A stretch of 64,000 nt of DNA, taken from positions 116,135-180,134 of the IMG/VR virus record IMGVR_UViG_3300023202_000336; one strand, written 5' to 3'. The DNA is from a virus. Below the pieces are notes generated by a model. It was given only the letters and a program-made list of their open reading frames with translations. It made no database searches and was not told the origin of the DNA. Position numbers and translations under genes: made by a program. Numbering within the stretch: position 1 is the stretch's first letter; each line of letters begins with the position of its first letter. This document shows, piece by piece, positions 4,632 through 16,634 of this stretch.

Positions 4632-5725
4632 TGGCTAATCCGGCATTTATAGCTCTCGGAGATCTTCATCTTGATTTCTATATTTGGCGTAAATTCAAGC
4701 AAGTAAAAGGCGATTCGTTTCTAGGATTCACCTCTTTGATAAATAGAGGTATAGCTCTCGGCGTTCCGGTCGTACTCGTAGGCGACATATTCGATACAGT
4801 CGAGCCAGACCCAGCTATTATACGATTTTTTCGAAGAGAGATGGATAGATGCAGGGATAACGACGTTGAAGTATACGCGATTCAAGGGAATCACGATCGA
4901 CGCCCGATACCCTGGTACTCCGCAGTCCACGACTGGCCTATTCATATCGGAGACGGTGAGGAAGTAGATATAAACGGTATCGGATGCGTTGCTTTCGACA
5001 ATATGACGCGCGATAAAATAGAAGACGCTATAATGAGCCTGAGAGACTGCGTGCCGAAGCCAGACGTCCTGTTTCTTCATCAAGCGGTGCGTCAGATGCT
5101 GTCATTCGAAGGGGCGTGGAATTGCGATCTCGATTGGATACCGGAAGGCATCCCGGCCACTATAATGGGTGATATACATAAAGAATGGGAACATAAAATA
5201 CGCGAAGGACAGAAGGCGTATTATACCGGCTCGAGCCATCCGAGAGAAGCGCCGGAGATAGGTTCGAAATCATGTATCGTCGTAAATGACGATCTTTCGG
5301 TTGAGAGACTTCCAATTGATTATAGGCCTATGACGAAACTCTATGTGAGATCTGATAAAGAACTAGAGGATCTGCGATCATGGGTCAACGAGGCTGTCGA
5401 GTCGAATCCGAAACTTCCTCCGTTCGCCTGGGTTGTGGCGTCTCCGGAGAAAGAGAGCGATATACTGGAGTTCAGAGAATCCTTCGAGGACGGCTCAGTT
5501 ATAATCATAACCGAACCTTTCACATTTAAAGATGATATAGAAGATCCAATAGTTGATGATGAGGAATGTTTAAGTATAGAAGCGCTACTTTCAAGATTCT
5601 TCGATCCAGATGAAGAACCAAAGAGTTATTCGTTTGCGGCTGACCTGCTCGGTCAGTCGAAGAGCGTTCTCGACGTAATAGGAGAACGCAGGGACCAATT
5701 CTATCAGGAGACCGAAGGTTCATGA
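4631..5725 (+). CDS. sbcD: SbcD/Mre11-family nuclease
   Basis: Metallophosphoesterase motifs GDLH, GDIFD, GNHD, LFLHQ, GDIH, YTGS; sbcC homologue nearby. Confidence 0.9.
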   Translation: MANPAFIALGDLHLDFYIWRKFKQVKGDSFLGFTSLINRGIALGVPVVLVGDIFDTVEPDPAIIRFFRREMDRCRDNDVEVYAIQGNHDRRPIPWYSAVHDWPIHIGDGEEVDINGIGCVAFDNMTRDKIEDAIMSLRDCVPKPDVLFLHQAVRQMLSFEGAWNCDLDWIPEGIPATIMGDIHKEWEHKIREGQKAYYTGSSHPREAPEIGSKSCIVVNDDLSVERLPIDYRPMTKLYVRSDKELEDLRSWVNEAVESNPKLPPFAWVVASPEKESDILEFRESFEDGSVIIITEPFTFKDDIEDPIVDDEECLSIEALLSRFFDPDEEPKSYSFAADLLGQSKSVLDVIGERRDQFYQETEGS

Positions 5726-7254
5726 CGGACACCGCCGAACTGGTATACGTGATAAGAGATTCGCTGAAGAGCGATCTGCTGAGAGAGCTGGAAATAGAGG
5801 TTGAAGAGGACTCGTTGACTTTTCCGGCTACCGACGATGAAGAAGAGTTCACTATCGAATGCTGGCGTTTCCCGAAAGAAGAGGTGAGTAAGTTAATTGA
5901 TTATGGGTACAACTGTACCTCGCTCGCTACTCCTACTAACGAAGACCTTGGGGAAGAGATTCCGGAGGGGCGAAAGATCGAATTCTTGGCTCTGATGAAT
6001 CCGGACAATTCCCCCGCACATCACGATGTAGATCCTCGTGAAAGATTCACGGTCGATATCAATAGCTGGAACAGCCCAGCGCCCGAAAAATTCAAGAGTC
6101 GAATCAAGGAGATATTCGAGGAGAGGCTGATGCCGGTAGTTCGAAAGAACATCGGCATTACGGTCCCTCACGCCGTAAAGGCGTCCACGGTTACTGAGGG
6201 AAACACTTTCATCGTCCATGTATGGTCCTCTCCGGTCAGTGCGCCAGACCATGGATATGTTGTTCCTCCGCAGATGTGGGGAATACCAGTTCCTTGCGTC
6301 GATGGTAGTTCCCTTGGGATATGGGCGGACGGTAATCCAGTTATAACAGAGGAAGGTGATGAAGTCGCTGCTTTCGATGAATATAATCTCTACATCTATT
6401 TCGACGCTGTTGAGACCGGCAGTGAAAGTGAGGTTGCTATTCTCGAAAAGATCGCAGAAAGTGTCGCAACGCAACTTCGTGATGGCCTCGAATACGATCT
6501 CGATAAAGTAAAGACTAGTTATATAAAGCAGTGTGGTAAGCGTGTAGAGATGCAGAAGAAAAATCTTAAGAAGCAGATGACGGATCTCGAAACTAGAGCT
6601 ACAGAGTTGCAGCAGGAGATGGTGCGTACTCTGCGAGAACATAAGGAAGCTCGAGTACGGGTGGAAACGTTCGATAAGCATTCAGATGACATTAACAAGA
6701 TGCTTTCGGAAGAGTTCGACGCGCTTACCGAGATGCCGAAAATCGAGAGGGTGGAGTACCGTGGTAACAGTCTCGCTGTTCATACGAAAACTCTTTTCTG
6801 TACCGACCCGAGGACCGATAAGGTACACGAAATCGGGGCTTTCAAGCTGGTTATCGATGAGCTGAGAGGCGATGTATACTTCTATAACAAAACGAGAAAG
6901 ATAAATGCGTATAAAGCTCAAATGAACGGTCCCCACCTCTTCCCCGACGGGAGAGCGTGTCTCGGGAACATGACGAAGGTGTTTCCGCAGCTCATTTCGA
7001 GTTATGAGTGGAGCGCGGCTATCAACATGGCGTTGAGTTTTATCGAGCACGTAAATGTGGACGATACCGCCGGCGCCCATATCGACATGTGGCCGATAGC
7101 TACTGACCCGAGTAAGGAACGTAGAGAAGCTGTGGAAGAGGTTGCTGAAGCCGCAGAGGTTGTAACAGAAGGGCATGATGTCCCGGTTACAGAAAACACC
7201 GTACCCGCTGCTGCGACGGAAGACGCAGCAGATACCGTAGAAAGAGAGGGATAA
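5722..7254 (+). CDS. E2 (UBC)-like protein A: N-terminal domain, coiled coil, C-terminal E2-like domain
   Basis: PHLFPDGRACLG (C413) has the same spacing as the E2 motif PNIxxxGxICL; lies directly upstream of JAB, E1 and Ubl genes. Confidence 0.7.
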   Translation: MTDTAELVYVIRDSLKSDLLRELEIEVEEDSLTFPATDDEEEFTIECWRFPKEEVSKLIDYGYNCTSLATPTNEDLGEEIPEGRKIEFLALMNPDNSPAHHDVDPRERFTVDINSWNSPAPEKFKSRIKEIFEERLMPVVRKNIGITVPHAVKASTVTEGNTFIVHVWSSPVSAPDHGYVVPPQMWGIPVPCVDGSSLGIWADGNPVITEEGDEVAAFDEYNLYIYFDAVETGSESEVAILEKIAESVATQLRDGLEYDLDKVKTSYIKQCGKRVEMQKKNLKKQMTDLETRATELQQEMVRTLREHKEARVRVETFDKHSDDINKMLSEEFDALTEMPKIERVEYRGNSLAVHTKTLFCTDPRTDKVHEIGAFKLVIDELRGDVYFYNKTRKINAYKAQMNGPHLFPDGRACLGNMTKVFPQLISSYEWSAAINMALSFIEHVNVDDTAGAHIDMWPIATDPSKERREAVEEVAEAAEVVTEGHDVPVTENTVPAAATEDAADTVEREG

Positions 7255-7259
7255 GATAG

Positions 7260-7928
7260 ATGTTTCTCCCCCATAGTTTCAAAACAGAAGTAGGGGGCGT
7301 TCCCGAGATAATCATCTCTCAGCAGGCGTACTACGACATGTGGACCATCGTCGACAAAGTTACGACCGAAGTGGGGTGGATGGGAACAGCTCACCGTAGA
7401 GACGACGGCAATCTTTTCATCGAAGAAATTCTCTTGCTGAAGCAGCAGTGCCACTCGACCACTACCGAGATGTCCCCTGAGGGGTACGCAGATGCTGTTA
7501 CGCGTCTTGCGATGGAGGACGCCGAGAAAGGAATCAATCCGGAGTCGCCAGACTACAGGGCCAACAAACTTTTCTTCTGGGGCCATTCTCACGTAAACAT
7601 GGATACGTCTCCTTCGTCGCAAGACGATGCCCAGATCGAAATATTCAGAGGCGATGGATGTCCGTGGTTTATCCGCGGCATCTTCAACAAGAAGAAGAGA
7701 GCAGAGTTCACTGTATTTTTCTTCGACGCGAATCTGGCGGTCATAGACTGCCCGTGGTCGATAGAGGCTACCGTCGACGATGGTAGAAGAGAATTCTGGG
7801 AGAAGGAAATCAGTGATAAGGTCAGTACTTTCTCGTCGAGCTCGTATTACGGAAGTAACAAGCACAAAGGCAGCAGCTATACCCCTCGTAGGACGGGTGG
7901 TCAGTTCAGTGATCGGTGGAGTAAGTAA
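7260..7928 (+). CDS. JAB/MPN+ metalloprotease A
   Basis: TEVGW catalytic Glu plus H-S-H-x7-S-x2-D (HSHVNMDTSPSSQD). Confidence 0.9.
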   Translation: MFLPHSFKTEVGGVPEIIISQQAYYDMWTIVDKVTTEVGWMGTAHRRDDGNLFIEEILLLKQQCHSTTTEMSPEGYADAVTRLAMEDAEKGINPESPDYRANKLFFWGHSHVNMDTSPSSQDDAQIEIFRGDGCPWFIRGIFNKKKRAEFTVFFFDANLAVIDCPWSIEATVDDGRREFWEKEISDKVSTFSSSSYYGSNKHKGSSYTPRRTGGQFSDRWSK

Positions 7929-8635
7929 TGAGCGATACCGTGGATACTCTTCGGCATATCAAGGTATTCGACGCCGAGGAGTTCGCGAGCAAGCGGGTCG
8001 ACGTGATAGGGGCCGGAGCTACCGGCTCCCGAATCGCGCTCGCGTTGGCGAAGCTCGGGATCACGAATCTTCACGTGTGGGATTTCGATAAGATAGAGTC
8101 TCATAATATAGCTAATCAGGCTTACGGACTTAAAGATGTCGGTAAGCCGAAAGTACGTGCGTTGGAAGAGCTTATTCACGAGCAGACGGGGATTAGTATC
8201 GCTCCTCACGAAGAGGCTGCTACGAAAGAGTCCGATCTGGGAGCATATGTGTTCCTTCTCACGGATACCATGGCTTCGAGAAAAGAGATTTGGAAAGGTG
8301 CTTTGAAGTACAAAGCCCACGTAGAACTCGTCGTAGAAACGAGGATGGGAATCAGCGAAGGAAGAGTCTATTCCGTAGTTCCGTCAGAACCGGCGGAAGT
8401 TTCATTTTACGAAAAGACGTTCTGCGACGATGACGAAGCAGAGGAGAGCATGTGCGGTGCTCGGACCGTAGTCGGCTCCACCGCTGAGTTGGTGAGCGGC
8501 TACGCTGTGTGGGCTTTTCTCAGGTACTATAAGTATAATCTCGAACGAAAAGAAGAGCGACCAGAGGTAGAAATGCTGTTTTTTGCCAGCCCGGCAATGA
8601 CTATGACGAACTCGCCGAAACCGGTGCTCGTCTAA
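7928..8635 (+). CDS. ThiF/E1-family adenylyltransferase A
   Basis: GAGATGS, DFDKIESHNIANQ, GKPKV; candidate catalytic Cys176 (MCGART); no CxxC zinc pairs. Confidence 0.92.
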   Translation: MSDTVDTLRHIKVFDAEEFASKRVDVIGAGATGSRIALALAKLGITNLHVWDFDKIESHNIANQAYGLKDVGKPKVRALEELIHEQTGISIAPHEEAATKESDLGAYVFLLTDTMASRKEIWKGALKYKAHVELVVETRMGISEGRVYSVVPSEPAEVSFYEKTFCDDDEAEESMCGARTVVGSTAELVSGYAVWAFLRYYKYNLERKEERPEVEMLFFASPAMTMTNSPKPVLV

Positions 8636-8661: not shown

Positions 8662-8913
8662 ATGATCGACATTTCCATCGGAGCGCCTCCCCGCTCTCCC
8701 ATGCGCACCGTCACCGTCCCCGACGATGCTTCCGTCGCGGATGCCATCGAAGCGGCTGGGCTCAACGGCCCGGAGTATCGGAACTTCGAGATCCGGGCGG
8801 GCGGCAACCACATCGATCACCCCGAGCGCGAACGCGCCACTCCGGGGATGACGGTGATCCTGGCCCCTCAGGTGAAGGGGAACGAGTTCGAAATTCGCAT
8901 CAAGACACGATAG
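8662..8913 (+). CDS. Ubiquitin-like (beta-grasp) protein A with masked C-terminal Gly
   Basis: TVTVPDDASVADAIEAAGL beta-grasp pattern ending PQVKG plus a 10-aa tail; follows the E1 gene. Confidence 0.75.
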   Translation: MIDISIGAPPRSPMRTVTVPDDASVADAIEAAGLNGPEYRNFEIRAGGNHIDHPERERATPGMTVILAPQVKGNEFEIRIKTR

Positions 8914-8926
8914 ATGGCCAGAAATA

Positions 8927-8950
8927 CCGGGGAGGAATCGTTCTCCCCGG
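8927..8950 (+). promoter_or_regulatory. Stem-loop after Ubl A
   Basis: CCGGGGAG/CTCCCCGG 8-bp stem with no U tract; function (mRNA stabiliser or pause site) is inferred. Confidence 0.45.
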
Positions 8951-8976
8951 CGTCATCTATGAGGAAGTGAGATAGC

Positions 8977-11340
8977 ATGATTACGAGAGTAAAAATTAAG
9001 AACTTCGGCGTTCATAAGTATATGGATATCGAGTTAGAAAAAGGTATAAACGGGATCATTGGTACGAATGGTTCCGGTAAATCAACGATACTCGAAGCTA
9101 TTAGATTCGGATTTACTGGTCAGGTATCTATGTCGGGGAATAAAGACGATAATGTTTCATGGGGCGAAGATCGCGGTAGTGTAGAGATTTGGTTCACGTA
9201 CGGTGACACTGATTATCAGCTGAAACGTACTCTTGGAGCTGGTTCTTCTCAGCGTCTGATCACCCCGGAAGACACTTATCGTCGAAAGACTGAAATCGAG
9301 CAGTATTTGAGAGAGCTTCTCGGCGCGAGTGCTGACGCGCTTTTGAACAATATTTTTCCTCCACAAGGAGATATAGATAAGATACTTTTCGATACGCGTA
9401 CCCAACGTTTGAAAGAGATGCAGCAAACCGTAGGGCTCCAAAGAGCTGCGGAAGCTGAAAAAGCCCTCGGTAACGAGATTAACAGTTATATATTAACGAT
9501 AGGTCTTGACGCACAGATAGAGGCAATCGAAGAAGAATTTGAAAAAGTAGACGAAGAGCTGAAAGATGCCACTCGACATAAAAGTTCAGTAGATGACGAG
9601 ATAGATTGTCTCGAAACCTATAGAGATAAGCTCAACGAGTTCATGATTTCGCAAGAAAATAGGGTCATATTGGATGATACCAAAAAGGAAATAGACGGCC
9701 TCGAACGAGAGCTCTACAAATCTAATCATGAGCGTCTTGAAATATCCAGTCATATAGAGGCAATGGCGTATCTTCGTGACTCGAAGAAACCGCTCGTAGA
9801 GGATGCTCAGGAGAAACTTCTCGACATCAGGTCGAGAGAGAAACAGATCAAAACGGTCGAATCTTTGAAAGAGAAACTCGTAAAGATAGATAAAGCGATA
9901 GTGGATCTCACAGAGTCGCGAGATGACCTTCTCGATATTATAGAGTCTAAGGAAGATCTCTTACGAAAGAAGCGTTCCAAGCTCGATCAATTAGTAGACA
10001 TCGAGAAGGAAAAGATCCCATACCCGGAGACAGAAGAGGAAAAAGAATATAAAGAAGAATATCAGAACATCGCAGCTGAGCTCGATGATCTGACGAAAAA
10101 GGAGCTGTTTTCGGAAGAGCTGGACGATCTTCAGAAGAAGTTAGAGGGTAGGAATCTCATGCTCGAGTCTATCGACGAGGGTAGCTGCTACGCATGCGGA
10201 GCTCCTGTAGACGACGTTAAGAGGGCCTTTGTTGAGAATGAAATAGAGGAGCTAGAAGGGTCGATTTCGGAGGTTTCAAAGGCTCTTCGCGCAGAACGCG
10301 ATGAGAAGGTACGCGAGTTGACCGAGTATCTCTCTGGTCTCGAAAAGAAAATAGAGTATTACATTAAGACGGCCCGCGAGGTAATATCCTCGAGAAGAAA
10401 GAAAATCGAAAAAGAAGTAGAGGAGCTCGAGAATGACTTGAAGATGCTCAGGTCCGAGAAAGAAACGCTCGGCGAGCTTCGTGCAAAGAAAACAGCAGTA
10501 GAAGAGCAGATATCCAATAACGAAGTAGTAGAGTCTCATGACGTGGATATCGACGAGCTTAAGAGCACGGTCGATAAATACGATAAGGTTCTTACGAAAT
10601 TGAGTGATCTCGAGAGCGAACTTAAGTTAAAGGAACAGAAAATAGAGAATATAGAATCCTCGTTACAGCGAGCTAATGAAAGGAAAGAAAAGATAGAAAG
10701 TAATACCGTCAGTTTTAGTGATGAGGAAATAGCTGAGGCGAAGGAGAAAGTGGACGTTCTTGCTGAGAGACTAAATTTTCGTAAGAGCCTCATAGAGGCC
10801 CTCACTGGACTGGAAGTGAAATATAAGGAATACTCTTCTTCGCTTAAGAGCCTTCATGAGAAATATGAGAGGGAAAAGAAAGATCAAGAATGGGTGAAAT
10901 TCTGTAAAAAAGTAAGAGACGTGTTTCATGTAAGTGCACTTCCGTCCCTCGCCATGAGAGAATACGCGACGGTACTGAACAAGCGTGTCGACTACTATCT
11001 GTCTACGTGGGAGGCTCATTTTACTATGGAGCTCGACGAAGAGCTGTCATTTATAGCTAAATTCGACGATAGAATACATCCGGCGAAGAGGTTGTCGGGT
11101 GGACAAAGGATAATTGCGAGTACAAGTTTTAGACTCGCGATGGGTGATACGTTCGCCAAACGCGTCGGATTGCTAGTTTTAGATGAGCCATCAGTCTATC
11201 TAGACAAAGATAACATCATACATCTACAGAGACTTTTACTGAAGTTGAAGGAGCTGGCCGGCGCGACCGGTAAACAGATCCTCTTGGTTACACACGAAGA
11301 GACATTAAGTGGTTTCTTCGATAACATCATCAGACTGTAA
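8977..11340 (+). CDS. sbcC: SbcC/Rad50 SMC-family ATPase
   Basis: Walker A GTNGSGKST, long coiled coil with central CYAC zinc hook, signature LSGGQ, Walker B LLVLDEP, H-loop VTHE. Confidence 0.93.
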   Translation: MITRVKIKNFGVHKYMDIELEKGINGIIGTNGSGKSTILEAIRFGFTGQVSMSGNKDDNVSWGEDRGSVEIWFTYGDTDYQLKRTLGAGSSQRLITPEDTYRRKTEIEQYLRELLGASADALLNNIFPPQGDIDKILFDTRTQRLKEMQQTVGLQRAAEAEKALGNEINSYILTIGLDAQIEAIEEEFEKVDEELKDATRHKSSVDDEIDCLETYRDKLNEFMISQENRVILDDTKKEIDGLERELYKSNHERLEISSHIEAMAYLRDSKKPLVEDAQEKLLDIRSREKQIKTVESLKEKLVKIDKAIVDLTESRDDLLDIIESKEDLLRKKRSKLDQLVDIEKEKIPYPETEEEKEYKEEYQNIAAELDDLTKKELFSEELDDLQKKLEGRNLMLESIDEGSCYACGAPVDDVKRAFVENEIEELEGSISEVSKALRAERDEKVRELTEYLSGLEKKIEYYIKTAREVISSRRKKIEKEVEELENDLKMLRSEKETLGELRAKKTAVEEQISNNEVVESHDVDIDELKSTVDKYDKVLTKLSDLESELKLKEQKIENIESSLQRANERKEKIESNTVSFSDEEIAEAKEKVDVLAERLNFRKSLIEALTGLEVKYKEYSSSLKSLHEKYEREKKDQEWVKFCKKVRDVFHVSALPSLAMREYATVLNKRVDYYLSTWEAHFTMELDEELSFIAKFDDRIHPAKRLSGGQRIIASTSFRLAMGDTFAKRVGLLVLDEPSVYLDKDNIIHLQRLLLKLKELAGATGKQILLVTHEETLSGFFDNIIRL

Positions 11341-11354
11341 AAAAGGGTCACATA

Positions 11355-12092
11355 ATGCCCAGAATCACTTTCATCAACGACGACGGCGCCGGATTCGGAT
11401 CCCCGCGCGAGGTCCCCTACGGCACCACCATGGCCGGTCTCTTCCGCGAGATCTGGCCGACGGGTAATCCGGAGCACTTCCGGTTTACTCTCAACGGTCG
11501 CTCCGCTACCGGTGACGATCGTCTCTCGGATGGCGATCGTGTCGCCATGATCGCCGCTACCGACGAGGCGCGTTACCCGGGTTACGGCCAGCGCCTCGGC
11601 GGTACCGTCGGTGGTTATGGTGCGGTCGACCGCGATGGTGGCGACCGCGTCGCTTTCATCGCTCCGCACGGCACCGGTTTCGCCGATTGGTACTACATCC
11701 GTCCTGGTACCACTCTCGAGCAGTTCGTTTATGAGCGTCTCGGTCGTCATTTCGACGTTCGCAATCACGTCATCAGCGTCGATGGCGTTCAGGGTCCCCC
11801 GGCCTCGCAGGTTCTCCGGGCGAACAACCATATCTCGGTCACTCCGCGCAACATCAAGGCTGCGTCGGATGTCGAGATCACCCTCATCAAGGGTTCCGGT
11901 GCCGGTTATGCGGCTCGTCGGCGTATCCCCCAGGGGACCACGCTCGGCGAGCTGTTTCACCGGGAGACCGAGGGTGACGATCCGGAGCGGACTCACATCA
12001 TCAAGCTCAACGGTGAGACCGCCACCCGCGATCGGGTTCTCGAGAACGGCGACTCGGTGACGATCTCTCCGAAGAACGTCAAAGGCGCCTGA
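11355..12092 (+). CDS. Triple ubiquitin-like (tandem beta-grasp) protein B
   Basis: Three similar domains each with GxGxxxxxxxxxGTT(M/L); the third ends PKNVKGA and the second PRNIKAA. Confidence 0.8.
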   Translation: MPRITFINDDGAGFGSPREVPYGTTMAGLFREIWPTGNPEHFRFTLNGRSATGDDRLSDGDRVAMIAATDEARYPGYGQRLGGTVGGYGAVDRDGGDRVAFIAPHGTGFADWYYIRPGTTLEQFVYERLGRHFDVRNHVISVDGVQGPPASQVLRANNHISVTPRNIKAASDVEITLIKGSGAGYAARRRIPQGTTLGELFHRETEGDDPERTHIIKLNGETATRDRVLENGDSVTISPKNVKGA

Positions 12093-12099
12093 GCAGTTA

Positions 12100-12140
12100 G
12101 AGGGGAGGCAGCATTCGTCTGCCTCCCCTCGTTTTTGTTT
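12100..12140 (+). terminator. Intrinsic terminator after triple Ubl
   Basis: 12-bp stem GAGGGGAGGCAG/CTGCCTCCCCTC followed by GTTTTTGTTT. Confidence 0.8.
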
Positions 12141-12194
12141 ACCCCATCTCACCACGATCGAGAGATCGAGAGATCGAAAACCATAAGGAGCGTT

Positions 12195-14267
12195 ATGGCC
12201 TCAATCGAGGATACTCTGCAAGGAACGTTCGTTCCTACTCCTCATCAGATCCAGAAGTACAAGTTCGTAGGTGATGATCTCTCCATATACCCGTGCGAAG
12301 GGCTCGAAGAGCGTAGGTTCCTAAGGCTTTTGATGCTCGCTGCAAGATTCTATAGTATTCTCTGTGAGAACGAAGGTAAGACGGCTCTCAATAGAAACAG
12401 GCAGTTGATACAGTCAGAGATTGAAGGATTCTCGCGATCGATCAATAATCTCCGAAGATCAGTTGGAGAGTTAAATCAAAAGAGTTCCGTGAAATTCATG
12501 AAGGAAGTTCAGAAGACTTCTGGATACGTGGAAGCTATGGAAAAGACGATAGGAGAAATAGTAGACCGTGGAGTAGAGAAGTCGTCTCTTTTCGATTTTA
12601 TGACGATCTATAAAGACTTCTACCATATGAGTGTCGGTGACGTTTACGAAGGGGTTTACCCCATTTTCTACGAAGATATCAAAAAAGACAAAAAGTTGGC
12701 AGTTATAGGTAAACCAGAGGCGGAAGTTTTTAATGACAAGATCGTAATACTTACAAAGCCGGCATCTATTAAGCACAATAAGAGAATTATTGACTTCGGA
12801 AACTATTTTATCACGTACTCTTTCCAGGTGTTGAACGATGCTTTACGGTCTGGAAACTCGGCTGCAATTCATAGCGGTTTGCGCCTCTCATCGCCGTCTC
12901 CACGTTACCCAAAAGACGATGACGGGGATAATATACACCCTCACATATCCGGTAACGGTATGTGCACAGGAGAGGCAGGTTACCGTATCTTGAGCTTTCT
13001 CCAGCAGGGCGTACTTTCAGGGGTTTTCCAACTCGTAAACAGCATCCTGAATACACTCGGATCAGGTCCCTACAGAGCGATCAGCGCCTGGGATCCTCGC
13101 CCGTCGTGTGCGGGGTGTGGCGAGATTATCGGTGAAGATGACGAAAGGGTCAATTGTTCTTCGAATGGTGCAGCGCTTCACAAGTCGTGCGCATATGAAG
13201 ACGAGGATGGGAACTTTCACGAACATCGCTTCGTCAAGACTTGTACCTTCTGTTTCAACGAGGGTGTTTTCGATGACAGGACTACGCGTGGAGGCAATGT
13301 CGGATGTCCTCTGTGCATTGAGGAGCTTTCGCGAGTCGAAAATCTCGTCAACGAAGGAAAGTTCCCTTGCCCGAACTGTAATCACGTTCATGAAGGCGAA
13401 GACGCGTTCGATCATAAGATAGAGCTCGGAGAGAAGGACTACGCGTGTACCAGATGTGTGAGCTGGGTCAGAGAGCCCAACGAGGACGGCGTCGGCACCT
13501 GTGAAGTAGAAGGAATAGGTCGCGTCACTACAAGTCGCATGATAACCCAGAGGAGTCGCCGCTCTTTTCCGCGTATTCCGAATATCGTCGTCTGCAGCTG
13601 CGGATCGAGAGTAGCCGAAGAAAATATCAGAAGAGACGATTTCGCAATGTCCAACTGTTGCCAGGTATGCGACCCCGATAATCTCGGAATGTCTCAGTCG
13701 TTCCTTGCGCAGGTGCCTATCATGGAAGCGTGGCTGTGGAACTTTTACGGAACGCATATAGGTGAGATGACGACGCAGTATTGCCGCCTCTATAGTTTCG
13801 TCGGCGAAGACGTTTCTGCCGAACGGGCTGCGAGCGTGGTCAAGAGATTGCGATGCTGGGAGATTAACCTGAGTAGAACCATGTGCTACGTCGATCGCCA
13901 TACCTCTCTGAGAGAGAAGGCCATATTCTGGGAAACCGTTTTAGCCGATACCGGCTTCATCATCCTGACCGCAGACGAGGAAAGCATCCGTATCCATGAC
14001 GAAATCCAAAGATTCCGAACAGAAGACGCGACGCGCGCCGGTAACGCGCCGGAAGGCGTCCTCGAAAGAGAAAGAGAAAGGATCCAGGAAACCCTCCGGC
14101 GGCTCAGAGACTTCTTCTCCGGAAGAAGAGCCGCAAGAGATGAAGAAGGAAGAGAAGAAGAAGGAAGAGAAGAAGACGGAAGAGAAAGAACCGACGAAGA
14201 TCGAGAAGAAATCCGAGCAGGCGAAGCAGGAGTCGTCGAGGCCGTCGATACCGGTGACGGCGCCTGA
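12195..14267 (+). CDS. E2-like protein B fused to multiple zinc fingers
   Basis: HPHISGNGMCTG E2-like motif (Cys codon 12963) followed by CAGC-C-HKSC, CTFC, CPLC, CPNC, CTRC, CSC and CCQVC; AAGGAG before ATG 12195. Confidence 0.7.
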   Translation: MASIEDTLQGTFVPTPHQIQKYKFVGDDLSIYPCEGLEERRFLRLLMLAARFYSILCENEGKTALNRNRQLIQSEIEGFSRSINNLRRSVGELNQKSSVKFMKEVQKTSGYVEAMEKTIGEIVDRGVEKSSLFDFMTIYKDFYHMSVGDVYEGVYPIFYEDIKKDKKLAVIGKPEAEVFNDKIVILTKPASIKHNKRIIDFGNYFITYSFQVLNDALRSGNSAAIHSGLRLSSPSPRYPKDDDGDNIHPHISGNGMCTGEAGYRILSFLQQGVLSGVFQLVNSILNTLGSGPYRAISAWDPRPSCAGCGEIIGEDDERVNCSSNGAALHKSCAYEDEDGNFHEHRFVKTCTFCFNEGVFDDRTTRGGNVGCPLCIEELSRVENLVNEGKFPCPNCNHVHEGEDAFDHKIELGEKDYACTRCVSWVREPNEDGVGTCEVEGIGRVTTSRMITQRSRRSFPRIPNIVVCSCGSRVAEENIRRDDFAMSNCCQVCDPDNLGMSQSFLAQVPIMEAWLWNFYGTHIGEMTTQYCRLYSFVGEDVSAERAASVVKRLRCWEINLSRTMCYVDRHTSLREKAIFWETVLADTGFIILTADEESIRIHDEIQRFRTEDATRAGNAPEGVLERERERIQETLRRLRDFFSGRRAARDEEGREEEGREEDGRERTDEDREEIRAGEAGVVEAVDTGDGA

Positions 14268-15960
14268 AGAGAAGAGAAAAGAGGCAGAGGATCTTCCAGC
14301 CTCTCCCGTGAGGCCTATACTCGAGTATTCCGAGGGAGTCGACGCCCTGTATTTCACGCCGTATGCTTGGGCGAAGCTCCAGTTCATGTGTCACTCCGTC
14401 GATACCGAAATCGGCGGAATGGCACTTACGGCAGCAGACAATCCGTTTCTCATCGAGGATATAGGTATCGTCAAGCAGAAGGCGAGTGCAGCTTTCGTTG
14501 ATTTCGATGACGAGGCGTTGAACGATTTCATGACCGAGCAGTTCGTAAAGCACGATCGTCAGCCGATCAACTGCATGAGGATCTGGATACATACGCATCC
14601 GCATGGATGCACGAAGCCTTCGGGACAGGACGAAAATACGTTCAGAGACGCTTTCGGAAGCGCAGACTGGGCAGTGATGTTCATTCTTGCGAAATCAGGA
14701 GAGGTCTACGCGCGTATGCGGGCTGATACTGCGCACGGCGTTTCGATCAACAAGCATCTCGACGTAGATATAGACTGGTCCAAACCTTTCGAGGGTTCGG
14801 ACCACGACAGCTGGCTCGAAGAGATCCGTGAGAAGGTCACTATCAGAACGTATTCGACTCCAGCAAAAGTAACGAGGTTCCCTGGTACGAGAAGCCGCGG
14901 CGTAAACGCGCTGATAAGCGATAAGAGATCGAGCTCGAACTCCACGAAGTCTTACATCGATGATGATTATATTTTAGATAATGAGTGGTACGGCGGTGGA
15001 TACGGTTACGGAGACGGTTACGGCGGTCAGAGAAGGTATTCCCGCGATAGTACGACGCACGGGAGGAAGGTGGAGATTCGCCTGTATCCTGAACACGTCT
15101 GCTACGATATGCCGAACCAGCTTTATATCAATCTGCTGAAGATGCCCCGTAAGAATTCGTTCTTCATTCATTCGGATAAGAAGGTTCTCGAGAAACTCGG
15201 GGCGGTGATGGTTCCGTACAAGAAGCACGAGGGCAAAGAGACCGCTAAGTTCCTCTGCTATATCAAGAGTCATGGCAAGAAGTATACAGTCGATTCGAGA
15301 GCACTCACTATGATGGTCGACCACCCCGTTCCCGTCCTCAAAGCTATTTTGGAAGAGCGTCACGAAGCCGAACAGAAGCTTCTGAAGATAGCGGATGGCA
15401 GGAACGAGAACATGTACGGTTTTACCGATATCTTCGGTAAACGGTGTCATGTAATCGTTCCTTGGTTCTGCCTGAACAGGAGGCTGATCTGGCTTTCGGA
15501 GGACGAGTATGTGACGATGGAAGAGATAAACGACGGTATTACTTCGCTTGAAGAGTCACTCGATAAAGAGGAAGATGATACGAAGGAGCTTACGACAGTG
15601 GGCAGCGAGGACGATAAGGGTGACGAACAGTTTTTGGATAAGGAAATCGAAGATTTGGAGACCGGGTTCTTCTTGGAAGAGAAGGAGCTGGCGGACGGTA
15701 AGCGTAAGATAAATCTCAGTTTCGATCACTTCTTCTCGGAAGCGTGGGATAACGTAATAGCGTACCTTAAGGCAGCGAACTATTTCGGAGCGAGTGAGAA
15801 GGACATCGAGACGAGACTCTTCAAGTACGAAATGGAAGCCAAAGCAGATGTAGAGAGAGAAGCTTACGAGGCGGTGAATAAGCTGGTGAGGTTGAAGGGT
15901 TACGACGTAGAAGCTCTCAAAGCCGTGATGATCAGTGACCAGAAGGAGGAAGAGGAATGA
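14254..15960 (+). CDS. JAB/MPN+ metalloprotease B with long C-terminal extension
   Basis: TEIGG plus H-T-H-x7-S-x2-D (HTHPHGCTKPSGQD); start uncertain (GTG 14254 preferred over 13996). Confidence 0.88.
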   Translation: MTAPEEKRKEAEDLPASPVRPILEYSEGVDALYFTPYAWAKLQFMCHSVDTEIGGMALTAADNPFLIEDIGIVKQKASAAFVDFDDEALNDFMTEQFVKHDRQPINCMRIWIHTHPHGCTKPSGQDENTFRDAFGSADWAVMFILAKSGEVYARMRADTAHGVSINKHLDVDIDWSKPFEGSDHDSWLEEIREKVTIRTYSTPAKVTRFPGTRSRGVNALISDKRSSSNSTKSYIDDDYILDNEWYGGGYGYGDGYGGQRRYSRDSTTHGRKVEIRLYPEHVCYDMPNQLYINLLKMPRKNSFFIHSDKKVLEKLGAVMVPYKKHEGKETAKFLCYIKSHGKKYTVDSRALTMMVDHPVPVLKAILEERHEAEQKLLKIADGRNENMYGFTDIFGKRCHVIVPWFCLNRRLIWLSEDEYVTMEEINDGITSLEESLDKEEDDTKELTTVGSEDDKGDEQFLDKEIEDLETGFFLEEKELADGKRKINLSFDHFFSEAWDNVIAYLKAANYFGASEKDIETRLFKYEMEAKADVEREAYEAVNKLVRLKGYDVEALKAVMISDQKEEEE

Positions 15961-16634
15961 GCGAAGAGCAGACCACTGTAGAAGAGCGCTATAGCCGACA
16001 GGCATCTCTGATACCTCCCGATAAAATCGCTACTTTGACGGTATGCGTGATCGGTGTCGGCGCTATCGGGAGGCAAGCTGCACTTCAGCTTGCCGCCTCA
16101 GGTGTCGGACGTCTGAAACTGATAGATCACGACGATATCGAAAGGGTGAATCTCGGTCCTCAGGGCTATTACGAGTCGGACATCGGGAAGAAGAAAGTCG
16201 AAGCGACAGCTGACGTGGCGCGATCGAACAACCCGGAGATCAGCATCGAGGCGGTAGATCGACGTTACAATCCTGTAGACGGCGATTGTGATGCGGTCTT
16301 CATGTGCGTCGATAGCATCGAGACTCGAAGGTTCATCTATGAATCTTTGATGGATCGGAAGCCGTTCCTTGTCGACGGCAGGATGGCCGCTGAGACGCTG
16401 AGAATCGTGACCGCCTACGATGATTCGACTTACGAGGACTACGAAGAGACACTCTTTTCAGATGATGAAGCTTTCGAGGGAGAGTGTACTGCAAGAAGCA
16501 CTATCTATTCGGCGAACATCGCCGCAGGACTGATGGTTGCGCAGTTCGCAAAGTGGGTTAGAGAGATGGAGATGATTATCAAGCCTGACTTCATTCTTAA
16601 TCTTCTGAGTGGAGAGCTATTCGAAACGGAGTAA
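15957..16634 (+). CDS. ThiF/E1-family adenylyltransferase B
   Basis: GVGAIG, DHDDIERVNLGPQ, GKKKV, CVDSIETR; candidate catalytic Cys177 (ECTARST). Confidence 0.92.
   Translation: MSEEQTTVEERYSRQASLIPPDKIATLTVCVIGVGAIGRQAALQLAASGVGRLKLIDHDDIERVNLGPQGYYESDIGKKKVEATADVARSNNPEISIEAVDRRYNPVDGDCDAVFMCVDSIETRRFIYESLMDRKPFLVDGRMAAETLRIVTAYDDSTYEDYEETLFSDDEAFEGECTARSTIYSANIAAGLMVAQFAKWVREMEMIIKPDFILNLLSGELFETE

What the first reader, a model, noticed from the sequence alone, without database searches (positions are those of the whole stretch)
8662..12092. Both Ubls hide their Gly behind a tail and share a VKG end; the triple Ubl has a Gly-less internal junction
Seen: Ubl A ends PQVKG-NEFEIRIKTR and Ubl B ends PKNVKG-A. 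Domain 2 of Ubl B ends PRNIKAA (Gly replaced by Ala), and the linker after domain 1 contains RLGG. Each Ubl gene is followed by a strong hairpin and looks GC3-richer than its neighbours. Established: JAB proteases mature pro-Ubls by exposing a C-terminal Gly. Inference: JAB A removes 10 residues, JAB B removes one, domains 2-3 stay fused, and RLGG may be a second processing site; the Ubls may be made in excess.
Basis: partly seen in the sequence, partly recalled or inferred. Interest (0 to 1): 0.7.

Follow-up and report, generated by a model that had tools for sequence, protein, structure and literature searches.

The report
Phage pro-Ubls with capped glycine ends
A 180-kb phage encodes two ubiquitin-like tags whose reactive glycine is capped by extra residues, and relatives show these caps are almost certainly trimmed by each tag's own JAB protease, as in bacterial Bil systems and eukaryotic polyubiquitin.

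Summary
Ubl A (83 aa) ends VKG plus 10 residues. Ubl B (245 aa, three beta-grasp domains) ends VKG plus Ala. Its domain 2/3 junction reads K-A-A, and RLGG lies in the domain 1/2 linker. Both genes are GC3 outliers and are followed by hairpins.

Relatives turn the reading into a supported inference:
- Ubl A orthologues in five syntenic phage contigs keep VKG-N invariant, with unrelated tails of 1 to 33 aa.
- The wider Ubl A family forms mono-, di- and tri-Ubl arrays with KG-N at 122 of 125 unit ends.
- In the Ubl B family no Gly-bearing member ends at the Gly, and Ala follows it in 83 of 106.
- KG-N Ubls travel with A-type JAB/E1/E2 genes and KG-A Ubls with B-type ones, which suggests two separate cognate pathways.
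- The junction Gly is kept in 12 of 14 aligned multi-domain homologues. It appears to have been lost independently here and in L003, so domains 2-3 very probably stay fused.
- RLGG is not conserved and is not supported as a processing site.
- The terminator after Ubl B is present in all six phages.

No cleavage or conjugation was tested. JAB trimming at G-A is already shown for Bil and Bub. This scan has met the KG-N poly-Ubl family before on other DNA.

The parts
8662..8913 (+). Ubl A pro-protein gene (83 aa): beta-grasp body of residues 1-73 ending VKG, plus a 10-residue tail
   Evidence: ORF. The profile of six orthologues matches SAMP2 (2l32) at E 2.2e-4, with VKG aligned on SAMP2's IKG(G). 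hhalign against the Ubl B family gives probability 98.6, E 1e-15. GC3 is 0.786, rank 2 of 194.
8881..8910 (+). Ubl A C-terminal tail (residues 74-83), the predicted propeptide removed after Gly73
   Evidence: Orthologues keep VKG-N, but their tails are 1, 5, 9, 10, 13 and 33 aa with no shared sequence. An 87%-identical relative carries a different 7-aa tail.
8927..8950 (+). 10-bp GC-rich hairpin after Ubl A, with no T-run
   Evidence: A hairpin at this position is present in only 3 of 6 syntenic loci.
11355..12092 (+). Ubl B pro-protein gene (245 aa): three beta-grasp domains at residues 3-67, 97-164 and 172-239. Gly244 is capped by Ala245
   Evidence: Pfam ThiS 4.9e-10. AF2 mean pLDDT 81 with three beta-grasp units. 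Foldseek best hits are linear tetra-, tri- and di-ubiquitin, ISG15 and FAT10. VIA single-domain matches are MoaD Z 10.6 and SAMP1 Z 9.4. GC3 is 0.724, rank 8 of 194.
11556..11642 (+). Disordered Gly-rich linker between domains 1 and 2. It holds PGYGQ (residues 75-79) and RLGG (residues 80-83, 11592-11603)
   Evidence: pLDDT is below 50 for residues 80-92. PGYGQ is shared with L002 and L003, and L004 has AGYGQ. RLGG is unique to this protein, and the linker varies greatly in length across homologues.
11859..11864 (+). Gly-less domain 2/3 junction: Ala169-Ala170 where the family has Gly-Ala
   Evidence: Gly occupies this column in 12 of 14 aligned homologues. Ala occurs only here and in L003. 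L003 groups with the Gly-bearing L002 at 96% support in a 2445-column tree, so the two losses look independent.
12084..12089 (+). Predicted JAB-B cleavage site, Gly244 | Ala245
   Evidence: The terminal Gly is invariant in 14 of 14. In the wider family 106 of 121 terminal sites have Gly and none ends at it. Ala follows in 83 of 106. E. aridi BilC cuts BilA between Gly97 and Ala98.
12100..12140 (+). Intrinsic terminator after Ubl B (12-bp stem with 9 GC pairs, then a T-run)
   Evidence: First-listed, longest-stemmed terminator-like site in 3-19 kb. An equivalent hairpin plus T-run follows Ubl B in 6 of 6 syntenic loci and in the stand-alone cassette L009.
7260..7928 (+). JAB-A, the predicted protease that matures Ubl A
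   Evidence: The catalytic Glu and the HxH..S..D motif are invariant in the alignment with orthologues and JAB-B. A-type JABs accompany KG-N Ubls in L023 and L024.
14137..15960 (+). JAB-B, the predicted protease that matures Ubl B (the ORF may start at 13996 and overlaps the E2-B tail)
   Evidence: JAMM motif intact. Weak matches to Pfam Prok-JAB and PADLOC JAB. A B-type JAB accompanies the KG-A Ubl in L009.
7928..8635 (+). E1-A, a single-domain ThiF-type adenylating enzyme (235 aa)
   Evidence: Pfam ThiF 4.7e-21. GxGxxG, the Asp and one Cys (C176) are invariant across 13 A- and B-type E1s.
15957..16634 (+). E1-B, a single-domain ThiF-type adenylating enzyme (225 aa)
   Evidence: Pfam ThiF 5.5e-30. 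Alignment A7.
5722..7254 (+). E2-A: C-terminal UBC-like domain with an invariant PHxFPxGxxCxG motif
   Evidence: Alignment A4. The AF2 domain model has mean pLDDT 69, and its Foldseek top hits are nearly all E2 enzymes at weak E-values of 0.06-0.3. An Atlas structure row is Prok-E2_D at TM 0.56.
12195..14267 (+). E2-B: HPxxxxxxxCxG motif followed by a Cys-rich zinc-finger region
   Evidence: His, Pro and Cys are invariant in seven homologues. The profile weakly matches LIM, RING, FYVE and PHD fingers.

Best explanation
Both proteins are inactive precursors of ubiquitin-like modifiers, each belonging to its own phage-encoded E1-E2-JAB pathway.

- JAB-A cuts Ubl A after Gly73 (VKG|N), discarding a fast-evolving 10-residue cap.
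- JAB-B cuts Ubl B after Gly244 (VKG|A), removing one Ala.
- The exposed Gly is then adenylated by the cognate small ThiF-type E1. It passes through the conserved E1 and E2 cysteines and is attached to target lysines.
- Ubl B acts as one 244-residue, three-domain modifier. Its domain 2/3 junction has Ala at the position where a JAMM protease and an E1 need Gly.
- RLGG is an incidental feature of a disordered linker.
- The Ubl genes are tuned for higher output than the enzyme genes, through strong codon skew and a terminator right after Ubl B that should thin transcription of E2-B, JAB-B and E1-B.

Shown here: the sequence features and their conservation. Inferred: cleavage, conjugation, pairing and expression level.
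For: The window lies in a complete 180,134-bp phage record.

Synteny: the same gene order, Mre11 - E2A - JAB-A - E1A - Ubl A - Rad50 - Ubl B - E2B - JAB-B - E1B - helicase, recurs in contigs L002, L003, L004 (with L005 and L006), L007 and L008. These share 41-51% protein identity.

Ubl A:
- VKG-N is invariant, and the tails are 1-33 aa and unrelated in sequence.
- L004 and L006 carry a head-to-tail di-Ubl whose junction and end are both ..VKGN.
- In 70 family members with the motif there are 25 mono-, 35 di- and 10 tri-Ubl proteins. Asn follows Gly at 122 of 125 sites, and at least one residue always follows the last Gly.
- Unit identity within a protein has median 69%, against 45% between proteins.

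Ubl B:
- The terminal Gly is invariant.
- The family-wide tail is at least 1 residue in 106 of 106 Gly-bearing members, and Ala follows in 83.

Enzymes:
- Both JABs keep the JAMM residues.
- Ubl type co-varies with enzyme type in the unrelated contexts L009, L023 and L024.
- E1 and E2 each keep an invariant Cys.

Precedent:
- BilC cleaves BilA at G97|A98, and Type II BilA proteins carry up to nine residues after the Gly.
- BubCD cleaves BubAB after G229 into only two fragments, leaving the three-domain Ubl whole.

Expression: GC3 skew and the terminator are conserved across six loci.
Against: - No biochemical test was possible.
- The E2 fold assignment is weak: Foldseek E 0.06-0.3, pLDDT below 50 over the catalytic loop, and no Pfam, PADLOC or NCBIfam E2 hit.
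- A few family members lack the terminal Gly altogether, so not every member need be conjugated.
- The GC3 skew could not be tied to expression, because the other GC3-rich genes have no recognisable function. The tri-Ubl gene in L023 is skewed towards AT3 and the L024 gene is not skewed.
- The hairpin after Ubl A is missing in 3 of 6 relatives.
- Orthogonality of the two JABs is inferred from co-occurrence only.
Confidence: 0.7

Rival explanations
1. The two pathways are not separate. Because both Ubls end in VKG, one JAB (or one E1) handles both, and the duplication serves dosage or timing rather than specificity.
For: Both tags share the VKG end. The two Ubl families are homologous at hhalign E 1e-15. 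JAB-A and JAB-B, and E1-A and E1-B, align with each other.
Against: The residue after Gly is fixed and differs: Asn at 122 of 125 A-type sites, Ala at 83 of 106 B-type sites. A-type Ubls occur with A-type enzymes and B-type with B-type when the cassettes stand alone. A and B enzymes share only about 20-26% identity. In the B family the residue before Gly is variable.
Confidence: 0.12
2. The tails are never removed. The Ubls act non-covalently as adaptors, scaffolds or filaments, or as sulfur carriers of the ThiS/MoaD type, and the variable tails are neutral drift past a structural Gly.
For: The closest solved folds and profile matches are MoaD, ThiS and SAMP. The E1s are minimal ThiF-like enzymes. 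Bacterial three-domain Ubls form Ca2+-dependent filaments. Some family members lack the Gly.
Against: Each cassette keeps a JAMM peptidase with intact catalytic residues and an E2-like protein with an invariant Cys. A strictly invariant P1 Gly and next residue beside a free-running tail is the signature of a cleavage site. The head-to-tail arrays with identical unit ends are hard to explain without processing.
Confidence: 0.1
3. Ubl B is cut more than once, at RLGG (freeing domain 1) and/or at the domain 2/3 junction, so the triple Ubl is a polyprotein in this phage too.
For: RLGG copies the ubiquitin C-terminus. The junction in 12 of 14 homologues looks exactly like the C-terminal site..K-[IV]-x-G-A.
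Against: RLGG is not conserved in any homologue. It lies in a Gly-rich linker that varies greatly in length, and it is about 15 residues beyond the last strand of domain 1 rather than the roughly 6 seen at the real ends. The junction here has Ala at P1. Domain 2 of this protein is the most diverged from domain 3 among eight homologues, at 25% against 31-65%. Citrobacter BubAB was cut only once by its JAB.
Confidence: 0.06
4. The high GC3 marks recent horizontal acquisition of the Ubl genes from a GC-richer donor, not selection for expression.
For: Both genes are compositional islands, 0.63 GC against 0.43-0.51 in neighbours.
Against: The same skew appears in six phages whose Ubls share only about 24-40% identity, and whose background GC ranges from 0.44 to 0.53. 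A transferred signature would have decayed over that distance. Gene order around the Ubl genes is conserved.
Confidence: 0.08

Closest known systems
Type II BilABCD (Bacterial ISG15-like) systems; Chambers et al., preprint 10.1101/2023.09.26.559546
   Same: The gene set is Ubl, E2, JAB and E1, and cassette B even has the Bil gene order. The Ubl is made with residues after a conserved Gly: BilA ends G97-A98 and homologues carry up to nine extra residues. The JAB peptidase BilC trims it. Some Type II BilA proteins have three beta-grasp domains.
   Different: The locus is encoded by a phage, inside its Mre11/Rad50-replication module, not in a bacterial defence island. The E1s are 225-235 aa single ThiF domains without the inactive adenylation domain or helical CYS insertion. 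E2-A and E2-B are 510 and 690 aa with extra domains. A profile of the phage Ubl B family does not match solved BilA sequences. Two paralogous systems sit side by side.
Bub (6E/DUF6527) systems and the bacterial Ubl3 family; Ye et al. PMC11601596, Gong et al. PMC11601603
   Same: They have three-beta-grasp Ubls. The JAB domain cuts immediately after the conserved terminal Gly and leaves the three-domain Ubl whole. PolyUbl proteins of two to three domains were noted as early as 2006 (PMC1779556).
   Different: Bub works through oxyester intermediates, with an E1 lacking a catalytic Cys, and has a DUF6527 serine protease. The phage E1 and E2 keep an invariant Cys, and no DUF6527 hit was seen. In bacterial Ubl3, domains 1-2 pack tightly and domain 3 is flexible. 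Here a 29-residue disordered linker separates domain 1 from a closely joined domain 2-3 pair. Ca2+ sites could not be compared.
Eukaryotic polyubiquitin and other capped Ubl precursors (from general knowledge: UBB, UBC and yeast UBI4 end with one extra residue; NEDD8, SUMO and Atg8 carry short tails)
   Same: The reactive Gly is masked by one or more residues that a protease removes. Relatives of Ubl A are true head-to-tail arrays of 2-3 units with identical unit ends and a final cap. Units within a gene are more alike than between genes.
   Different: The units end K-G rather than G-G, and the next residue is a fixed Asn. The window's own Ubl A is a single unit with a 10-residue cap. Ubl B's internal junction has lost the Gly, so it is not a polyubiquitin-type precursor.
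Archaeal SAMP2 / sampylation (UbaA E1, HvJAMM1)
   Same: This is the best sequence match of the Ubl A profile (E 2.2e-4), with ..VKG aligned on SAMP2's ..IKGG. It also uses a small ThiF-type E1 and a JAMM protease.
   Different: From general knowledge, sampylation has no E2. The aligned solved SAMP2 chains end at or near the diglycine. The phage Ubls have one Gly and always a cap.

Membership tests
Type II BilABCD | Operon encodes a Ubl, an E2, a JAB/JAMM peptidase and an E1 | tested here: met
   ThiF E1s. JAMM motifs. Beta-grasp Ubls. E2-like motif with invariant Cys, though fold support is weak.
Type II BilABCD | The Ubl carries residues after a conserved C-terminal Gly, and the JAB removes them | not testable with these tools
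   The sequence signature is present and conserved. Cleavage itself needs biochemistry.
Type II BilABCD | [quoted passage not shown] | tested here: not met
   E1-A is 235 aa and E1-B 225 aa. Each is a single ThiF domain covering the whole protein.
Type II BilABCD | Resides in bacterial defence islands and acts against phage | tested here: not met
   The locus lies in a complete phage genome between terminase and replication genes. Five syntenic phage contigs share it.
Bub (6E/DUF6527) | E1 and E2 lack catalytic cysteines (oxyester chemistry), and a DUF6527 serine protease is present | tested here: not met
   One Cys is invariant in 13 E1s and in each E2 family. No DUF6527 hit appeared among the cassette proteins in Pfam. 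The rest of the genome was not scanned for it.
Bacterial Ubl3 filament-forming family (Gong et al.) | Three beta-grasp domains | tested here: met
   AF2 model, mean pLDDT 81, three beta-grasp units. Polyubiquitin-like Foldseek matches.
Bacterial Ubl3 filament-forming family (Gong et al.) | Tight domain 1-2 unit with conserved acidic Ca2+-binding residues that mediate dimers and filaments | tested here: inconclusive
   The model shows a disordered 29-residue linker between domains 1 and 2. No solved Ubl3 chain appeared in the profile search or in the listed fold matches, so the Ca2+ residues could not be aligned.
Polyubiquitin-type precursor | Head-to-tail units, each ending in the conjugatable Gly, with a terminal cap | tested here: not met
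   The window's Ubl A is one unit plus a cap. Ubl B's only internal unit end has Ala for Gly. Relatives of Ubl A do meet the feature: 35 di- and 10 tri-unit proteins.
PRTRC cassette (operon type 6d) | Proteins score above the NCBIfam PRTRC model cut-offs | tested here: not met
   Only PRTRC_ThiF matched, at 28-29 bits against a cut-off of 144.75. No other PRTRC model hit.
SAMP2-like beta-grasp modifiers | Sequence similarity over the whole domain, including the C-terminal ..[IV]KG | tested here: met
   The Ubl A profile matches 2l32 at E 2.2e-4 over residues 3-69. The Ubl B profile matches SAMP2 (5lda) at E 0.01.

The most novel reading that the evidence does not exclude
In most phages of this clade Ubl B may be a polyprotein that JAB-B cuts at both G-A sites. 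That would yield two different modifiers from one gene: domains 1-2, and domain 3 alone. This phage and L003 would then have independently welded them together by a Gly-to-Ala change, creating a permanently linear three-domain tag, a natural uncleavable chain mimic. In parallel, the fast-evolving and often basic or amphipathic tails released from Ubl A could be functional peptides, or autoinhibitory plugs that time tag activation during infection.
Probability: 0.15. Interest if true: 0.8.

Novelty: new variant of a known kind. Interest (0 to 1): 0.6.

Why it matters
Capped Ubl precursors trimmed by a JAB protease are established for bacterial Bil and Bub defence systems. Here the same logic appears on the phage side, twice in one genome, with two distinguishable cleavage signatures (G|N and G|A). 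These look like a ready-made pair of separate tagging systems.

The comparison gives exact, cheap predictions:
- Mass loss of ten residues from Ubl A and one from Ubl B.
- No cut at K-A-A or at RLGG.

It also provides a natural experiment on whether poly-Ubl junctions are processed, because the junction Gly is kept in most relatives and lost twice.

The cassettes are locked between the phage's Mre11 and Rad50 genes in six phages. Knowing the mature tag ends is therefore the first step towards finding what a phage tags during replication or counter-defence. The papers I searched do not address that question.

Tried and rejected
- Megablast of the 12-kb module and tblastn of Ubl B against 50,697 deposited phage records found nothing.
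- The search for related loci with E1-B in viral contigs gave no confirmed relative.
- The word-indexed protein search with Ubl B found only itself. Relatives came only from the exhaustive HMMER search.
- phmmer of Ubl B against PDB gave tobamovirus coat proteins, whole-sequence E 1.2e-5 but each stretch about 0.46. I treat this as chance inflated by a duplicated chain.
- Profiles of the E2-A and E2-B families against PDB returned only coiled-coil or zinc-finger noise.
- PADLOC matched only the E1s and weakly JAB-B, not the Ubls, the E2s or JAB-A.
- NCBIfam gave nothing above cut-off.
- No solved bacterial BilA or Ubl3 chain appeared in the profile or fold searches, so homology to those families is undecided.
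- I tried to show that GC3-rich genes are the highly expressed structural genes. PHROGs and Pfam found no structural (virion) function in any of them: the only hits were a DUF6745 domain and transposase/TnpB-like matches.
- GC3 enrichment is not universal outside this clade. It is opposite in L023 and absent in L024.

Full report
**What the locus is**

The window is bases 116,135-180,134 of a complete 180,134-bp phage record with direct terminal repeats. Downstream of the large terminase, on the + strand, the genes run in this order:
- an Mre11/SbcD-like phosphoesterase
- E2-A, 5722-7254
- JAB-A, 7260-7928
- E1-A, 7928-8635
- Ubl A, 8662-8913
- a Rad50/SbcC-like ATPase, 8977-11340
- Ubl B, 11355-12092
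- E2-B, 12195-14267
- JAB-B, to 15960
- E1-B, 15957-16634
- then helicase, DnaB-like helicase, primase, DNA polymerase and a UvsX-like recombinase

**Checking the observation**

Every sequence statement is correct.
- Ubl A has Gly73 at 8878-8880, followed by ten residues.
- Ubl B has Gly244 at 12084-12086, followed by Ala245.
- The domain 2 end reads K168-A169-A170-S171.
- RLGG is residues 80-83.

An AlphaFold2 model built on 14 homologues (mean pLDDT 81) gives three beta-grasp units at residues 3-67, 97-164 and 172-239. A low-confidence linker lies between the first two. Its best Foldseek matches are linear tetra-, tri- and di-ubiquitin, ISG15 and FAT10. Single domains superpose on MoaD (Z 10.6, 1.9 A over 70 residues) and SAMP1 (Z 9.4).

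Ubl A had only a sub-threshold Pfam hit. A profile of six orthologues, however, matches SAMP2 at E 2.2e-4 with VKG aligned on SAMP2's IKG(G). It also matches the Ubl B family at hhalign E 1e-15.

The hairpins are real:
- After Ubl A, a 10-bp stem at 8927-8950 without a T-run.
- After Ubl B, a 12-bp stem plus T-run at 12100-12140, the first-listed and longest-stemmed terminator-like site in 16 kb.

GC3 is 0.786 for Ubl A and 0.724 for Ubl B. These rank 2 and 8 of 194 ORFs, against a genome mean of 0.581.

**Relatives**

Nothing similar is present among deposited phage genomes. An exhaustive HMMER search with Ubl B found 138 representatives. Looking up where the best ones are encoded returned five distinct uncultured phage contigs with the same 11-gene order: L002, L003, L004 (plus two near-copies), L007 and L008. 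They share 41-51% identity over 2445 aligned columns of six proteins. The interleaving of two Ubl cassettes with Mre11 and Rad50 is therefore a conserved trait of a phage clade.

**Ubl A end**

In the six orthologues VKG-N is invariant. What follows is 1, 5, 9, 10, 13 or 33 residues with no common sequence. An 87%-identical protein from another sample has a different 7-residue tail. In L004 and L006 the gene encodes two units head to tail, and the junction and the end both read ..VKGN.

A profile search found 74 family members. Of the 70 with the motif:
- 25 have one unit, 35 have two and 10 have three.
- Asn follows the Gly at 122 of 125 unit ends.
- At least one residue always follows the last Gly.
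- Units within a protein are more alike (median 69%) than units between proteins (45%).

This is the layout of a polyubiquitin gene. An invariant P1 and following residue next to a free-running tail is what a cleavage site looks like.

**Ubl B end and junction**

- The terminal Gly is invariant in 14 of 14 aligned multi-domain homologues.
- Over the 138 representatives, 106 of 121 terminal sites have Gly.
- None of the 106 ends at the Gly, and Ala follows in 83.
- The domain 2/3 junction has Gly-Ala in 12 of 14. It has Ala-Ala only in this phage and in L003.
- In the concatenated tree L003 groups with the Gly-bearing L002 at 96% support and not with the window, so the Gly appears to have been lost twice.
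- Domain 2 of the window protein is also the most diverged from its domain 3 among eight homologues, at 25% against 31-65%.

The terminal Gly is thus indispensable, while the junction Gly is usually kept but can be lost. In this phage the junction cannot serve as a Gly-dependent site. Whether the Gly-bearing junctions of relatives are cut remains open. The one experimental precedent argues against it: Citrobacter BubAB is cut by its JAB into just two pieces.

**RLGG**

RLGG is unique to this protein. The linker that holds it varies greatly in length and composition across homologues. It is modelled as disordered, and it lies about 15 residues past the last strand of domain 1. I see no support for it as a processing site. 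The neighbouring PGYGQ is shared with L002 and L003, and L004 has AGYGQ. It is unexplained.

**Enzymes and pairing**

- Both JAB families keep the catalytic Glu and HxH..S..D.
- Thirteen E1s share the nucleotide-binding glycines, the catalytic Asp and one invariant Cys.
- E2-A keeps PHxFPxGxxCxG and E2-B keeps HPxxxxxxxCxG.
- The E2 fold call is weak. The domain model has pLDDT 69 with a poorly modelled catalytic loop. Its Foldseek list is dominated by UBC enzymes, but at E 0.06-0.3. One Atlas structural row is Prok-E2_D.
- Stand-alone cassettes elsewhere show co-variation. KG-N Ubls (L023, L024) sit with A-type JAB, E1 and E2. A KG-A Ubl (L009) sits with B-type enzymes. This holds whatever the gene order.

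That supports two cognate, probably separate pathways. It makes the shared VKG a mark of common descent rather than of cross-talk.

**Expression signals**

- In all six syntenic loci the two Ubl genes have the highest GC3 of the module (one tie).
- A GC-rich hairpin with a T-run follows Ubl B in six of six.
- A hairpin follows Ubl A in only three of six.
- The stand-alone B cassette L009 shows both features. The tri-Ubl gene in AT-rich L023 is skewed the opposite way, and the L024 gene is not skewed.

Persistence of the skew across such diverged Ubls (roughly 24-40% identity) argues for selection, not recent transfer. I could not show that GC3-rich means highly expressed in this genome. The terminator is the stronger argument that the Ubl is made in excess over E2-B, JAB-B and E1-B.

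**Comparison with known systems**

Trimming of a capped Ubl by the operon's JAB is shown for E. aridi BilA, cut between Gly97 and Ala98. Type II BilA proteins carry up to nine extra residues. It is also shown for Citrobacter BubAB. Two- and three-domain bacterial Ubls are known.

The phage systems work like Bil but are not members:
- The E1s are single 225-235-aa ThiF domains.
- The locus is viral.
- The Ubl profiles do not reach solved BilA or Ubl3 sequences.

They are not Bub, because the cysteines are conserved and no DUF6527 is seen. They are not PRTRC either. I found no paper describing phage-encoded paired Ubl cascades or the KG-N arrays. That library is incomplete.

Earlier notes of this scan report KG-N poly-Ubl genes in several other phage genomes. 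So the family has been seen before in this project on other DNA.

**Verdict**

The main inference, JAB-matured pro-Ubls with domains 2-3 fused here, is well supported by comparison and precedent but untested. RLGG is rejected as a site. The claim of Ubl excess is plausible.

Noticed in passing
window 13996-14267: The E2-B and JAB-B reading frames overlap by 272 nt (131 nt if JAB-B starts at the ATG at 14137). Both frames here encode low-complexity charged sequence, so the true JAB-B start, or a frameshift link between the two genes, is unclear.
   Followed up: no
window 12141-12194: Between the Ubl B terminator and the E2-B start lies a triple direct repeat, GATCGAGA GATCGAGA GATCGAAA, just upstream of the AAGGAG ribosome-binding site. 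It could be a regulatory or restart element for the downstream enzyme genes.
   Followed up: no
window 11577-11591 (Ubl B residues 75-79): The motif PGYGQ, directly after domain 1, is conserved in the window, L002 and L003, and L004 has AGYGQ. The rest of the linker is not conserved. It may be a docking motif of unknown partner.
   Followed up: partly
L003:5480-6583: In this relative the JAB-A gene is called as two pieces (113 and 117 aa) separated by about 400 nt. This could be an insertion, an intervening element or a broken gene.
   Followed up: no
L003:10001-11098: The Ubl B homologue of L003 (365 aa) carries an extra insertion of about 120 residues between domains 1 and 2. This relative also lacks the junction Gly.
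   Followed up: no
L004:7112-7597 and L006:4085-4600: The di-Ubl form of Ubl A ends in a 33-residue, strongly basic Lys/Arg-rich tail. It recalls the basic ribosomal-protein extensions fused to eukaryotic ubiquitin. Another family member has a similar 38-residue basic tail.
   Followed up: partly
window 12195-14267: The Cys-rich region of E2-B weakly matches LIM, RING (TRIM5/TRIM25), FYVE and PHD fingers with a family profile (E 0.003-0.1). This is compatible with a built-in E3-like or substrate-binding module.
   Followed up: partly
L023:5363-5992: A tri-Ubl KG-N gene in a 42% GC phage contig has GC3 of 0.27 against 0.32-0.50 in its neighbours. This is a strong codon skew in the opposite direction to the one seen in the window.
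   Followed up: partly
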